Shown here piece after piece: positions 38,759 to 40,888 of a stretch of 64,000 bases of DNA. Every line of letters begins with the position of its first letter. Positions within the stretch are counted from its first letter, which is position 1. The stretch is from an uncultured Coriobacteriales bacterium (lineage in GTDB: Bacteria; Actinomycetota; Coriobacteriia; Coriobacteriales; QAMH01). Both the position numbers and the translations under genes were made by a program. The notes under the pieces were generated by a model. The model ran no database searches, was not told where the DNA came from, and was given only the letters and a program-made list of their open reading frames with translations. The stretch lies in the NCBI GenBank assembly GCA_934646835.1, contig CAKUES010000006.1, positions 32,533 through 96,532 of the forward strand, read 5' to 3'.

Positions 38759-39041
38759 GCCAATTGCCTGAACGAAAAATCGTTCAGGCAATTGGCAGAA
38801 AGCATCGAAACGGGCCTCTGCACGAGTTCCCTGAACGATTCGTCGTTCAGGGAACTTCTCTGAACGACGAATCGTTCAGGGAATTCGAGAGAAACGTTAA
38901 AAGGGGCGTGCGTGCCAATTCCCTGAACGATTCACTGTTCGGGGAATTTGTCTGAACGCTCAATCGTTCAGACAATTCGAAAAAGCGACAAAACGAGGCT
39001 TAATGCAGATTGTCTGAACGAAAAATCGTTCAGACAATCTG
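38759..39041. repeat. Array of six palindromes built on CTGAACGA-N4(6)-TCGTTCAG (hairpin array 1)
   Basis: Hairpins at 38759-38796 (17-bp arms), 38826-38855, 38860-38879, 38917-38948 (imperfect), 38948-38975 and 39006-39041 (16-bp arms). Confidence 0.85.
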
Positions 39042-39534
39042 GGCGTGTGACTAATCGTTGAGGATATTGGCTCCAAAGCGTCGTGAGATAGACAAACGCA
39101 CCGTGTGCTGATCTTTCAGCATCCTTTGCATAGGATCGCAAAGGGCGCTTTGCATCGGTCGCCATGTCGAAAGGAAAAGCCTGCTGTGCCCTTTCCATAG
39201 GGGAGGAGTGCGGCGCGGTGGCGTCGGAAGCATTGATGTTGGTCCACACACGGCGCTTCATATGAAAGAGAAACCAGACGAGCGAGGCAGGGCAATCGAA
39301 TGCGGCAGGCAAGGGTGTCTCAAAAAACGGAGATTGATCTGCTTGAGGTTCTCGACGAGGATCCTGCTCGCCCTGCTCTGTTACTCCGCCCTGACCCCAG
39401 GCTTTAGAGTTTTCCACAATCTGAGTTTTCCCCAGACTGAGCTACGACTGATTTAAGACTGAACTAAGAACGCTATTTGCCGCTAACAACAGAATGAGAT
39501 TTGTCAAGTATTTCGAGAACTTAACGAAAGTGTA

Positions 39535-40587
39535 GTGAAAATGCGTAGTTCGGGCGCTCTTCTCGCGAATTCAGTTCGACGAGCGTATGCTCGCCGCATG
39601 AAAATTGCTATTGACAGAAACGATGCTTTTGCTGCCTATCGCAATGGAATCTGCGACAACGCATTCCAGATGGCGAGGGTCCCTCTTCCTGCGGGCTTCA
39701 TTCCAAAGCTGACCTGGCGGGAGGCTATGGGCTTGCATGAGAAGTACGCGACAGGGGTTCCCTTGCGATGCTTTGTGGCGCGTGATTGTGATCGGAGGAA
39801 CAGCGATACGCTCAAGTGCGGTGTCTCGACGCAAGCGGCGGCTCTTGCATCTCTTATTCAACTGAGCGATGAGAACTATATCGTCTCGCCAGAGCTTTGC
39901 GCGCTCGGTATCGCCAAGGAAGCAGATGTCGTCTCAACTGCTCTCGCTATCACAGAGCTGTGCAGTGCGTATTCGCTTGCCGGTAATGGTAGCGATGGAT
40001 ACAGGTCTCGCCTCCCACTTTCCTCGCTTCAGCGCATGGACTGTCTGCCGTTGCAGCTCAAGTACACGAAAGGTCTTGCTTGTTTTAGGGAGGCGTGTCG
40101 GATTGCTGTCGAGTGTGCTGCCTCTCCAATGGAGGCGGTGCTGGCATTGCTGTTGTGCATGCCTGCGCGCTTGGGCGGGTATGGTTTGCCGAGGCCGCTG
40201 CTGAATCCGCTGTTGAGCTCGCAAGGCGTCGATGCGGATAAGAGCTTTGTGCTCACTGGTGCGCCGGAGCATGGGGCATTGTATGGCGACTTGGTGTTTG
40301 AGGGCAGGGGGCTTGTCGTCGAATATGCAAGCAAGCTCAACCACGCAGATCGATGGGATCAGGATATGTTGCGCGCCAACGAGCTGCTGGATATGGGCTT
40401 TACCGTGATTAGCGTCACTCCGTCTGAGCTCTTCGATCAAAAGCGCACGCATGCGCTGGTTGAAAAGATTGCGCGGCAGCTTGGGTTGGGGCTTCCCTTG
40501 ACGCGTCCCGGGTGGAACAAGGTAAATGCCGAGCTTCGGGCGAGGCTGTTTGCAGAGAGCGGCTTGCAGGCCGGCATCTGCTGGTAG
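39535..40587 (+). CDS. Hypothetical protein with a C-terminal DUF559/Vsr-like (restriction-endonuclease-fold) region, possibly with a degenerate active site
   Basis: 350 aa, GTG start. The C-terminus GDLVFEGRGLVVEYASKLNH..D.D..R.NELLDMGFTVISVT..ELF parallels the actinobacterial pattern D..W....V.VEYDG..H......D..R...L...GW.V..VT. Ala replaces the Asp of E-x-D-G. Confidence 0.5.
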   Translation: MKMRSSGALLANSVRRAYARRMKIAIDRNDAFAAYRNGICDNAFQMARVPLPAGFIPKLTWREAMGLHEKYATGVPLRCFVARDCDRRNSDTLKCGVSTQAAALASLIQLSDENYIVSPELCALGIAKEADVVSTALAITELCSAYSLAGNGSDGYRSRLPLSSLQRMDCLPLQLKYTKGLACFREACRIAVECAASPMEAVLALLLCMPARLGGYGLPRPLLNPLLSSQGVDADKSFVLTGAPEHGALYGDLVFEGRGLVVEYASKLNHADRWDQDMLRANELLDMGFTVISVTPSELFDQKRTHALVEKIARQLGLGLPLTRPGWNKVNAELRARLFAESGLQAGICW

Positions 40588-40704
40588 GCGAACCAAGTGT
40601 TTTGACTTGCGGATGAAGATAGAGCGTCTGTTTATTGAGAGAGGCGGATGAGCAACCATCCGCCGCCTTTGTTGTGGGGTGCAAATCGCCGTAAGGCTAA
40701 GTTC

Positions 40705-40888
40705 TCTGAACGATTTGTCGTTCAGACAATTCGAGAGGAATGCCCAAACGGGCGCACGTGCGGATTCCCTGAACGATTCGTCGTTCAGGGAACTTCTCTG
40801 AACACCCAATCGTTCAGGGAATTCGAGAAAAGCGGCAAAACGAGGCTCAATGCAGAAAGTCTGAGCGACAAATCGTTCAGACTTTCTG
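40705..40888. repeat. Array of four palindromes of the same CTGAACGA/TCGTTCAG family (hairpin array 2), collinear with part of array 1
   Basis: Hairpins at 40705-40726, 40765-40792, 40798-40817 and 40853-40888. The block TTCCCTGAACGATTCGTCGTTCAGGGAACTTCTCTGAAC is identical to 38827-38865. Confidence 0.85.

What the first reader, a model, noticed from the sequence alone, without database searches (positions are those of the whole stretch)
38759..40888. AT-richer islet with a DUF559-like gene flanked by two homologous arrays of CTGAACGA-N4-TCGTTCAG hairpins
Seen in the sequence:
- 38759-39041 holds six palindromes and 40705-40888 holds four, all built on the same 8-nt arm (CTGAACGA / TCGTTCAG, loops of 4-6 nt).
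- Several extend to 13-17 bp stems, for example GCCAATTGCCTGAACGA-AAAA-TCGTTCAGGCAATTGGC at 38759-38796 and CAGATTGTCTGAACGA-AAAA-TCGTTCAGACAATCTG at 39006-39041.
- The arrays are collinear over long stretches (TTCCCTGAACGATTCGTCGTTCAGGGAACTTCTCTGAAC...ATCGTTCAGGGAATTCGAGA...AAAACGAGGCT.AATGCAGA..GTCTGA.CGA.AAATCGTTCAGAC..TCTGG). They therefore behave as direct repeats about 1.9 kb apart.
- Between them the DNA is visibly AT-richer (26/60 G+C in the line starting at 39421).
- That DNA carries a 350-aa ORF. Its C-terminus resembles the DUF559/Vsr-like endonuclease fold, but the Asp of the E-x-D-G motif is replaced (EYAS).
- About 490 bp (39042-39534) has no convincing ORF.
- The apparent ORFs across the arrays (38764-38955, 40648-40971) merely translate the palindromes (recurring FPERFVVQGTSLN).

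Inference: several readings are possible.
- The structure may be a composite mobile or recombinogenic cassette that can be excised through the direct repeats.
- It may be a dense operator array for an unidentified DNA-binding protein.
- It may be a tandem RNA-hairpin element.

I do not recognise the motif as a known repeat family.
Basis: partly seen in the sequence, partly recalled or inferred. Interest (0 to 1): 0.62.

Follow-up and report, generated by a model that had tools for sequence, protein, structure and literature searches.

The report
Nuclease-like gene bracketed by palindrome arrays
A gut Coriobacteriia genome carries a solitary gene for a nuclease-fold protein, enclosed by two arrays of hairpin-forming palindromes; relatives of this gene elsewhere are enclosed in the same way, each by its own palindrome, which points to an undescribed protein-plus-repeat cassette.

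Summary
Ten copies of CTGAACGA-N4-TCGTTCAG lie at 38768-39033 (six) and 40706-40880 (four). None occurs elsewhere in the 64 kb.

**Anatomy**
- The arrays repeat with a 92-nt period (63 + 29 nt) and contain inverted doublets.
- They are direct repeats, 80% identical.
- They bracket a 329-aa gene (39598-40587) under purifying selection. Its C-terminus has a DUF559/Vsr-type nuclease fold. The N-terminal ~200 residues match no known family.

**Comparisons**
- The cassette is present in every assembly of this species.
- A sister species has it too, with the palindrome core conserved and the linkers scrambled.
- A third relative lacks it. That junction keeps only a small repeat cluster with the same 63/29 spacing.

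**Family**
- The protein family is large: more than 3,100 clusters.
- About half of ~33 sampled clades, in unrelated genomic contexts, have homologues flanked by clade-specific palindromic modules. These are often ~60-73 nt apart and often homologous on both sides.

**Reading**
- Most likely this is a cognate protein-palindrome cassette. It resembles REP/REPIN-RAYT but uses a different nuclease superfamily and shows no sign of dispersal.
- Binding, cleavage and mobility are inferred, not shown.
- Rival readings: self-regulatory operator loops, insertion into a pre-existing array, and RNA hairpins.

The parts
38212..38577 (+). Left neighbour: NifX-like (Nitro_FeMo-Co) gene. It is not part of the cassette and marks the left side of the insertion site.
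   Evidence: Pfam PF02579, E 1e-16. It lies directly next to the MFS gene in relative L190.
38664..38712 (+). G+C-rich hairpin plus T-run: the terminator of the NifX-like gene. It is built on a diverged copy of the palindrome (CTGAACAC-atcga-TGTTCGG).
   Evidence: Sequence. DNA fold -18.1 kcal/mol, z -8.0. The equivalent copy in L011 matched the pattern with 4 mismatches.
38756..39043 (.). Left array of six palindromes. H1 38756-38799 is a singlet with a 20-bp stem. H2+H3 38823-38887 form an inverted doublet. H4+H5 38917-38979 form a second doublet. H6 39006-39041 is a singlet with a 16-bp stem. Start-to-start spacing is 63, 29, 63, 29, 62.
   Evidence: Aligns copy by copy with the array in sister species L011. 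Only 79% identical between two strains of the same species.
39044..39440 (.). Variable non-coding spacer. Its ORFs are not conserved, and it differs by large indels between strains and from L011.
   Evidence: Alignment A1. Identity and gap profile. No Pfam hit for the ORFs there.
39441..39597 (+). Conserved AT-rich leader upstream of the gene. 39481-39540 is 90% identical to the sister species, more than the gene itself. The promoter is presumed to lie here but was not identified.
   Evidence: The sigma-70 scan found nothing on the + strand.
39598..40587 (+). Cassette gene encoding 329 aa. The N-terminal ~200 residues are an alpha/beta domain with no known family. The C-terminus is a DUF559/Vsr-type PD-(D/E)xK nuclease fold (E179, D231, E242, H249 retained; motif VEYAS).
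   Evidence: dN/dS 0.13 against the sister species.
40643..40664 (+). Terminator-like hairpin after the gene (GGCGGATG-agcaac-CATCCGCC followed by a T-rich tail).
40686..40890 (.). Right array of four palindromes. H7 40702-40729 is a singlet. H8+H9 40761-40825 form an inverted doublet. H10 40853-40888 is a singlet with a 16-bp stem. The array is in register with H3-H6 of the left array.
40988..42208 (-). Right neighbour: MFS transporter gene, convergent with the cassette gene. It is not part of the cassette.
   Evidence: Pfam PF07690, E 4e-30. Orthologues were used to find the empty site.

Best explanation
The two arrays and the gene between them form one unit. It is a solitary gene for a DUF559/Vsr-fold, nuclease-like protein, bracketed by arrays of hairpin-forming palindromes that are that protein's own recognition sites.

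**Proposed working (inferred)**
- The protein recognises the conserved core (AA)TCGTTCAG / CTGAACGA(TT).
- It does so in a dyad-symmetric, hairpin- or cruciform-capable context, and occupies both arrays.
- The direct-repeat arrays exchange sequence with each other. They also allow the gene to be gained or lost as a block.
- The unit behaves like a resident selfish cassette. This parallels a RAYT gene sitting among its REP/REPIN sequences, but the protein belongs to a different nuclease superfamily and the palindromes have not spread around the genome.

**Shown**
- The anatomy of the arrays and gene.
- Conservation of the core while the linkers diverge.
- Concerted and rapid evolution of the arrays.
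- Presence/absence of the cassette between related species.
- Purifying selection on the gene.
- Recurrence of gene-flanking, clade-specific palindromic modules in the protein family.

**Inferred**
- That the protein binds the palindromes.
- That it cuts at them.
- That the cassette is, or once was, mobile.
For: 1. **Exclusivity.** The palindromes occur only around this gene within 64 kb.

2. **Core conserved, linkers not.** In the sister species (protein 75% identical) the arrays align copy by copy. The core columns are invariant or nearly so, while the array as a whole is only 50-66% identical. Flanking genes are 85-92% identical.

3. **Loss in a relative.** L190 lacks the gene and lacks the CTGAACGA core. 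It keeps only a small cluster with the same 63/29 spacing.

4. **Homologues carry their own palindromes.**
   - L013 (48% identical, unrelated context): two TCCGTGCAYGAA..TTCRTGCACGGA palindromes on each side, 63-64 nt apart. They differ from the window unit by symmetric changes.
   - L223: 134-nt modules, 93% identical, on both sides. Each holds two palindromes ~61 nt apart.
   - L225: its paralogue (54% identical; source names carry the same locus-tag prefix) has a related but distinct palindrome.
   - L189, L183, L185, L181 and the L164 clade have homologous modules on both sides.
   - L161, L014 and L222 have arrays on one side, or different arrays on the two sides.

5. **Specific to this gene's flanks.** Flank-to-flank similarity of 33 bits or more occurred in 8 of 33 loci, against 1 of 66 flank-versus-gene-body controls. 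Strong inverted repeats occurred in 11 of 37 adjacent spacers against 4 of 41 other spacers. At least two of those four are the arrays themselves, mis-assigned because of spurious ORFs.

6. **No conserved partner gene** in 33 loci.

7. **Modules come with the gene.** The L223-type module is absent next to DegV in three relatives that lack the gene. The Collinsella module is unique among the records of the plasmid collection, including its own 900-kb replicon.

8. **Dyad symmetry beyond the core.** It is maintained through changes on both sides: 40 cells against 20.2 +/- 3.8 in shuffles, with 0 of 500 shuffles reaching the observed value. Pairing collapses when the partner column is slid.

9. 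**A functional gene.** dN/dS is 0.13. The length is 329 aa in nearly all of the 32 sequence variants of its 90% cluster (three shorter forms come from short contigs).

10. **Concerted evolution.** Left and right arrays in this genome are 80% identical, against 60-69% for any comparison with L011.
Against: - No binding, cleavage or transposition has been shown.
- About half of the sampled clades show no flanking repeats at the sensitivity used.
- No target-site duplication and no second identical copy were found.
- The cassette has stayed at one locus in two species, so it is not recently mobile.
- The N-terminal domain has no recognisable DNA-binding fold.
- The copies within an array are paralogues, so the covariation counts overstate the number of independent events.
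- The genome-wide census failed.
- The small repeat cluster at the 'empty' site could mean that the array predates the gene.
Confidence: 0.45

Rival explanations
1. The arrays are purely regulatory operator arrays. The protein, or another dimeric factor, binds the palindromes as duplex DNA on both sides of its gene and loops the 1.85-kb segment to repress or insulate a potentially toxic nuclease gene. Lambda CI does this at OL and OR, and P1 RepA does it at iterons on both sides of repA. No mobility or cleavage is involved.
For: - The sites are 20-bp dyad-symmetric, with a core conserved as sequence.
- The 63-bp spacing equals six helical turns. It recurs in L013, L161 and L190.
- In several clades the upstream module abuts the start codon.
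- L013 has a promoter-like TTGACG-17-TATAGA overlapped by a separate palindrome.
- The palindrome type varies with the protein clade.
Against: - Ten sites, including four beyond a terminator-like hairpin, is a lot for autoregulation.
- Duplex binding does not explain why variable positions outside the core stay complementary.
- It also does not explain the inverted doublets with 32-nt arms.
- In this window the left array ends 555 nt upstream of the start codon.
- It does not explain presence/absence of the whole block or the high silent-site divergence.
Confidence: 0.2
2. The arrays are host features that predate the gene: a local tandem palindrome array, or a REP/BIME-like family. Genes of this family insert preferentially into such palindromic DNA, as some insertion sequences target REPs. 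The gene therefore ends up with array on both sides, and the palindrome type follows the host rather than the protein.
For: - The gene-less junction in L190 still has a small cluster with the same 63/29 spacing.
- The arrays sit between convergent genes, where REP/BIME-type repeats are usually found (established knowledge).
- The first copy doubles as the terminator of the neighbouring gene.
- A palindrome with the same core is a dispersed repeat in an unrelated MAG.
Against: - The right array duplicates H3-H6 of the left array in register, including the distinctive terminal singlet (H6 and H10 regions 87% identical). It is not the continuation of a split array.
- Two paralogues whose source names share a locus-tag prefix carry different palindromes.
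- L013, in an unrelated context, keeps the 63-nt architecture and a related core.
- L223-type modules are absent at the empty sites of relatives.
- There are no other copies in 64 kb here, and the Collinsella module has no second match among the records of the plasmid collection, including its own 900-kb replicon.
Confidence: 0.15
3. The palindromes act as RNA hairpins. They would be transcription insulators or terminators, or stabilisers of the neighbouring transcripts, maintained by selection on RNA structure.
For: - The hairpins are very stable (z -4 to -12).
- One copy is a genuine terminator-like hairpin with a T-run.
- The arrays lie at gene ends.
- There is some excess of G.T over A.C in the stem extensions on the + strand, 23 against 5.
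Against: - The array hairpins lack T-runs. The terminator scan reported only 40643-40664 in the intergenic DNA.
- The core shows no G.U bias, 7 against 8.
- The core is conserved as sequence, not merely as pairing.
- Most of the G.T excess comes from L011, where the flanks are direct TGTTCT repeats. The rest comes from a few related copies.
- There is no Rfam match above noise.
- This reading does not explain why the repeat type follows the protein clade.
Confidence: 0.08

Closest known systems
REP/REPIN sequences with their RAYT genes (Bertels and Rainey 2011, PMC3116915, PMC3337134)
   Same: - A single-copy gene is flanked by multiple short palindromes.
- The palindromes are often paired in inverted orientation, so that a doublet can form one long hairpin.
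- Each protein variant has its own palindrome type.
- Inheritance is vertical across species.
- Paralogues that appear to share one genome are distinct.
   Different: - The protein is not an HUH/Y1 (IS200-like) transposase. It has a DUF559/Vsr-type PD-(D/E)xK fold plus an unknown N-terminal domain.
- REPINs occur in hundreds per genome. Here no copy was found away from the gene in 64 kb, and a relative's module has no second match among the records of the plasmid collection, including its own 900-kb replicon.
IS200/IS605-family insertion sequences
   Same: - A small element with one gene.
- Subterminal hairpin-forming palindromes at both ends in the same orientation, recognised as structure plus sequence (established knowledge).
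   Different: - There is no HUH TnpA and no TnpB.
- There are arrays of 4-7 palindromes rather than one per end.
- No multiple copies or defined ends were found.
Bacterial interspersed mosaic elements (BIMEs) of enterobacteria
   Same: Mosaic arrays of palindromic units in alternating orientation, separated by linkers of fixed lengths, and located between gene ends (established knowledge; spacing).
   Different: BIMEs are dispersed genome-wide and are not tied to one gene. Here the arrays are tied to one gene family and the motif changes with it.
Operator or iteron arrays on both sides of the gene of the protein that binds them (lambda CI with OL/OR; P1 RepA with incC/incA)
   Same: Two homologous site arrays about 2 kb apart enclose the gene of the presumed binder. 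The in-phase spacing suggests cooperative binding (established knowledge).
   Different: - There is no repressor or Rep fold.
- The sites form long hairpin-capable doublets.
- There is no phage or plasmid context.
DUF559 / Vsr-like endonucleases and the homing endonuclease I-Bth0305I (PDB 3hrl, 3r3p)
   Same: The C-terminal ~70-100 residues share the fold and the E...D...E-x-x...H residues.
   Different: - Characterised members are short mismatch or homing nucleases.
- None is described with an extra ~200-residue N-terminal domain of this type, or with flanking palindrome arrays. The literature search found nothing.

Membership tests
REP/REPIN-RAYT system | The associated protein is an HUH/Y1 tyrosine transposase related to IS200 TnpA | tested here: not met
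   Pfam gives only a weak REase_MTES_1575 hit, and DUF559 in relatives. PDB matches are 3hrl and 3r3p.
REP/REPIN-RAYT system | The gene is flanked by multiple REPs, including inverted doublets that form a hairpin | tested here: met
   Six plus four palindromes. The doublets have 32-nt arms, and the best-preserved one (H2+H3) folds as a single ~31-bp hairpin.
REP/REPIN-RAYT system | Each protein is specifically associated with its own repeat type | tested here: met
   Distinct palindromes occur in the window/L011, L013, L164, L181, L183, L185, L189, L223 and L225 clades. Paralogues 54% identical have related but different motifs. The evidence is qualitative and the sample is small.
REP/REPIN-RAYT system | The repeats are dispersed in tens to hundreds of copies per genome | tested here: inconclusive
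   None lies outside the two arrays in 64 kb. A relative's module has no second match among the records of the plasmid collection, including its own 900-kb replicon.
DUF559 (PF04480) / Vsr-like PD-(D/E)xK nucleases | Match to the family model at its curated threshold | tested here: not met
   The window protein has no DUF559 hit and only MTES_1575 at E 0.027 (15 bits against a 38.2 cut-off). Seven of 28 relatives match DUF559 at E up to 0.01.
DUF559 (PF04480) / Vsr-like PD-(D/E)xK nucleases | Fold and catalytic residues of the Vsr-like nuclease core | tested here: met
   The model has pLDDT 89 and pTM 0.91. Foldseek matches 3r3p at probability 0.92, rmsd 2.3 over 67 columns. The family profile matches 3hrl at E 1e-4. 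E179, D231, E242, H249 and D256 are conserved.
Integron gene cassette (attC) | Integron integrase nearby; attC with R''/R' core sites (GTTRRRY) | tested here: not met
   No integrase lies among the neighbours. The palindrome ends (GTTCAGG) do not fit GTTRRRY.
CRISPR array | Near-identical direct repeats separated by unique spacers of similar length; cas genes | tested here: not met
   The units alternate in orientation with 9-nt and 43-nt gaps. The gaps are themselves repeated (92-nt period). No cas genes are present.
Intrinsic terminators | G+C-rich stem followed by a T-run | tested here: not met
   The scan reported 40643-40664 but none of the ten array hairpins. By eye and by folding, 38664-38712 also has a G+C-rich stem followed by TCTTTT.
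Known RNA families (Rfam) | Covariance-model match at the gathering score | tested here: not met
   Only sub-threshold chance matches to microRNA models were found. At gathering score the whole window yields only a tRNA and the L31 leader.

The most novel reading that the evidence does not exclude
This would be a new class of hairpin-associated genetic element. A widespread family (more than 3,000 clusters) of solitary proteins, combining a Vsr/DUF559-fold nuclease with a novel N-terminal domain, would recognise and process its own clade-specific palindromic hairpins or cruciforms. This would be functionally parallel to RAYT-REPIN or IS200/IS605 but would have evolved from the PD-(D/E)xK superfamily. 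The flanking arrays would serve as the element's ends.
Probability: 0.25. Interest if true: 0.85.

Novelty: new variant of a known kind. Interest (0 to 1): 0.68.

Why it matters
**What it would add if the protein does recognise its flanking palindromes**
- It would give a function to the DNA around a very large family of uncharacterised 'hypothetical' proteins in gut Coriobacteriia and other bacteria.
- It would be a second, independent case of long-term coexistence between a protein and its palindromic repeats, the REP-RAYT problem, built on a different nuclease fold.
- It would offer a set of natural protein/DNA specificity pairs, with a different palindrome in each clade.

**Why the system is tractable**
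- It consists of one gene and one 20-bp site.
- Natural variants exist with and without the gene.

**Practical point for annotation**
- The arrays generate spurious ORFs: 38764-38955, 40648-40971, and the 102-aa and 80-aa calls in L007/L008.

Tried and rejected
- **Genome census.** It returned 111 single, chance-level hits in unrelated taxa and did not return the host genome. No whole-genome census was obtained.
- **Viral and phage searches.** The viral-contig scan gave 28 single chance hits and no arrays. The phage protein search found nothing.
- **Plasmid searches.** The protein search gave one hit, a 900-kb Collinsella replicon. A DNA search with the left array found nothing.
- **RNA families.** Rfam gave nothing meaningful.
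- **Protein libraries.** NCBIfam, PADLOC and PHROGs gave nothing for the protein. Longer family members have no Pfam domain in their N-terminal extensions.
- **LexA/SOS box.** Considered and rejected by eye: the palindrome is GAAC-N8-GTTC, not GAAC-N4-GTTC.
- **Integron attC, CRISPR and intrinsic terminators.** Rejected; see the membership tests.
- **Conserved partner gene.** None was found in 33 loci.
- **Enrichment statistic.** The spacer-by-spacer test is crude, because spurious ORFs across the arrays caused some arrays to be counted as 'other' spacers.
- **Literature.** Searches for DUF559 with flanking repeats found nothing relevant.
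Full report
**1. Observation**

The finding is accurate.
- The exact pattern CTGAACGA-N(3-8)-TCGTTCAG occurs six times, against none in 100 shuffles.
- With up to three mismatches there are ten copies, all at 38768-39033 and 40706-40880. Shuffles gave 0.23.
- Every exact TCGTTCAG octamer in the 64-kb window (16 of 16) lies in the two arrays.
- The quoted long stems are real: 20 bp at 38756-38799 and 16 bp at 39006-39041.
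- The arrays are direct repeats offset by 1846-1847 nt, 145 nt at 77% and 63 nt at 87%. Over ~205 nt they are 80% identical.

**2. Anatomy**

- Spacing is regular. The left array runs 63, 29, 63, 29, 62 nt start to start, and the right array 63, 29, 63. The repeat unit is therefore 92 nt with two palindromes.
- Copies 29 nt apart are inverted relative to each other (loops TTCG and CGAA). Together they form a palindrome with 32-nt arms. As a single strand, the H2+H3 doublet folds as one ~31-bp hairpin and H8+H9 as one long imperfect hairpin, whereas H4+H5 folds as two short hairpins.
- Each array has the layout singlet, doublet(s), singlet. The right array matches H3-H6 of the left array in register, including the distinctive terminal singlet.
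- The linkers are also homologous (TTCGAGA...AAACGRGGC...TGC.GA).
- The terminator hairpin of the upstream NifX-like gene (38664-38712) is a diverged further copy with a G+C-rich extension and a T-run. The ten array hairpins have no T-runs and were not called as terminators.

**3. The gene**

- *Start.* The ORF is called as 329 aa from ATG 39598 in independent metagenome assemblies. That start fits the family N-terminus M-x-I-x-(I/L)-S-H.
- *Structure.* The AlphaFold model is confident: pLDDT 89, pTM 0.91.
- *C-terminus.* Only the C-terminal part has known relatives:
  - the family profile matches PDB 3hrl (a DUF559 protein) at E 1e-4;
  - it matches the homing endonuclease I-Bth0305I (3r3p) at E 2e-3;
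  - Foldseek matches 3r3p at probability 0.92;
  - seven of 28 relatives match Pfam DUF559.
- *N-terminus.* The first ~200 residues match nothing in Pfam, NCBIfam, PADLOC, PHROGs or the PDB.
- *Catalytic residues.* E179, D231, E242, H249 and D256 are conserved. The 'EYAS' position is variable across the family, so it does not prove inactivity.
- *Selection.* Against the sister species, dN/dS is 0.13, so the gene is functional. Its silent-site divergence is 1.35, against 0.44-0.55 for the neighbouring genes. Within the species it is 0.039 against 0.006.

**4. Comparative evidence at this locus**

- *Host.* It is an uncultured human-gut Coriobacteriia. The window holds an L31-Coriobacteria leader, and the named relatives of the MFS neighbour are Atopobiaceae and Coriobacteriales MAGs.
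- *Same species.* Every assembly long enough to span both arrays shows six plus four palindromes. The left array is nevertheless only 79% identical between two strains whose flanking genes differ by less than 1%, while the right array is identical.
- *Sister species (L011).* Its protein is 75% identical and its MFS 84% identical. The cassette sits at the same place and the arrays align copy by copy. The core is conserved but the linkers are not. Array identity is 50-66%, against 85-92% for the flanking genes.
- *Concerted evolution.* In the window genome the left and right arrays resemble each other (80%) more than either resembles its orthologue (60-69%). This indicates sequence exchange between them.
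- *Relative without the gene (L190).* Its MFS is 79% identical, and its MFS gene lies directly next to the NifX-like gene across a 238-bp spacer. There is no cassette gene and no CTGAACGA core. The spacer does hold a small cluster of repeats spaced 63 and 29 nt, with 18-nt inverted arms. I read this as a decayed solo array left after loss of the gene. The alternative, that the array predates the gene, cannot be excluded.

**5. Family-wide evidence**

This is the most informative result.
- *Size.* The family has 3,108 clusters at E below 1e-30.
- *Solitary genes.* In 33 non-redundant loci no neighbouring gene family recurs across clades.

Many members are bracketed by their own palindromic modules:

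| Locus | Relation to window protein | Flanking repeats |
|---|---|---|
| L013 | 48% identical, unrelated context | Two TCCGTGCAYGAA..TTCRTGCACGGA palindromes per side, 63-64 nt apart; shares TCCnTGnAnGA with the window unit and differs by symmetric changes |
| L223 | Eggerthellaceae homologue | 134-nt modules, 93% identical, on both sides; two palindromes each, ~61 nt apart |
| L225 | 54%-identical paralogue of L223 protein (source names share a locus-tag prefix) | Upstream array of a related but distinct palindrome, 72-73 nt apart |
| L189, L183, L185, L181, L164 clade | ~25-30% identical | Homologous modules on both sides |
| L161 | ~30% identical | Four 62-63-nt tandem units downstream; a different hairpin array upstream |
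| L014, L222 | ~26-30% identical | Repeats on one side only |

- *Enrichment.* Flank-to-flank similarity of 33 bits or more occurs in 8 of 33 loci, against 1 of 66 flank-versus-body controls. Strong inverted repeats occur in 11 of 37 adjacent spacers against 4 of 41 others, an imperfect count.
- *Limit.* About half of the clades show nothing at this sensitivity.
- *Co-occurrence with the gene.* Relatives of the L223 host that lack the gene next to DegV also lack the module. The Collinsella module has no second match among the records of the plasmid collection, including its own 900-kb replicon.

**6. DNA site or folded strand?**

- The core is conserved as sequence.
- Positions just outside it vary but stay complementary. 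There are 40 cells with changes on both sides, against 20.2 +/- 3.8 in shuffles, and 0 of 500 shuffles reach that value. Pairing falls from 80% to 31-47% when the partner column is slid.
- This combination, a conserved core plus a covarying stem, is what hairpin-recognising systems show. The copies are paralogues, however, so the number of independent events is small.
- There is no strand-specific wobble signal in the core (G.T 7, A.C 8). The excess in the extensions (23 against 5) is largely explained by direct TGTTCT repeats in L011.
- I therefore cannot decide between duplex, cruciform and single-strand recognition. An RNA role is the least supported option.

**7. Explanation and probabilities**

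- *Most likely (0.45).* This is a cognate protein-palindrome cassette. The encoded nuclease-fold protein recognises the palindromes that bracket its gene. The arrays exchange sequence and allow block gain or loss. The unit is a resident, probably selfish, element analogous to a RAYT gene among its REPINs.
- *Shown.* Sections 1-6 above.
- *Inferred.* Binding, cleavage, and past or present mobility.
- *Rivals.*
  - Purely regulatory looping between operator arrays: 0.20.
  - Insertion into a pre-existing host array or REP-like family: 0.15.
  - RNA hairpins: 0.08.
  - The remainder is unassigned.

**8. Comparison with known systems**

- It works most like REP/REPIN-RAYT as described in PMC3337134 and PMC3116915: a gene flanked by multiple REPINs, each protein with its own repeat type, single copy, vertically inherited.
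- It is not a member of that system. The protein is not an HUH/Y1 transposase, and dispersal of the repeats was not found.
- It is not an integron cassette, a CRISPR array, a set of intrinsic terminators or a known RNA family.
- No paper in the searched library links DUF559-like genes with flanking palindrome arrays.

**9. Limits**

Genome-wide copy number in the host therefore remains unknown.
- The structure libraries that might identify the N-terminal domain were unavailable.
- All functional statements are inferences from sequence comparison.

Noticed in passing
window 39481-39660: The leader and the first ~60 nt of the cassette gene are 90-93% identical to the sister species, while the rest of the gene is about 73% identical. 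This includes a small hairpin, CGAGC-GTAT-GCTCG, just before the ATG. It could be a regulatory element or a recombination tract.
   Followed up: partly
window 38756-39043 compared with L002 10650-10940: The left array is only 79% identical between two strains of one species whose flanking genes differ by less than 1%. The right array is identical. The left array is therefore a hotspot of copy shuffling or gene conversion. For example, H1 changes TTGC..GCAA to TTGT..ACAA on both sides at once.
   Followed up: partly
window 34777-34809: An L31-Coriobacteria ribosomal-protein leader (Rfam RF03128, just above its gathering score) lies upstream of rpmE at 34815-35240. It helps place the host in the Coriobacteriia.
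   Followed up: no
window 35382-36599 and 36645-37784: Two adjacent genes encode ~380-405-aa proteins with hydrophobic N-termini and no Pfam family above threshold (weak Big_7 and RibLong hits). Both are conserved in the sister species.
   Followed up: no
window 21022-21131: A tandem repeat of a 32-nt unit, 3.4 copies at 80% match (CCACGTAGGGGAGGTCCCGGGAGCGACGGAGC).
   Followed up: no
L016 31-50, L018 3858-3877, L022 1650-1669 (MAG 'bacterium isolate D_3_bin.27'): The same core palindrome, gtgtCTGAACGAGTTTTCGTTCAGacac, occurs on three contigs of one unrelated AT-rich MAG, with shared flanks on two of them. It is a dispersed repeat there. No homologue of the cassette protein lies on those contigs.
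   Followed up: partly
L229 4871-5148 (GCA_965341165.1, DegV/DUF2804 spacer): A long palindrome with ~30-nt arms (GGGCGAATACGGGGTAGGCAGACGGCGGTG / CACCGCCGTCTGCCTACCCCGTATTCGCC) encloses an inner hairpin, AATCGTGGTA..TACCACGATT. It sits at a site where a related genome carries a cassette. It could be a solo module of another type.
   Followed up: no
L013 430-470: Upstream of the 48%-identical homologue there is a promoter-like TTGACG-17-TATAGA. It is overlapped by the palindrome GACAATCTATAGATTGTC, whose arms (AGATTGTC / GACAATCT) also occur in the stems of window hairpin H6. A CTGAAC half-site lies just before the start codon.
   Followed up: no
window 39598-40587 compared with flanking genes: Silent-site divergence of the cassette gene is 2.5-3 times that of its neighbours between species (1.35 against 0.44-0.55), and 6 times within the species. 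Possible causes are older alleles, exchange between lineages, or locally raised mutation.
   Followed up: partly
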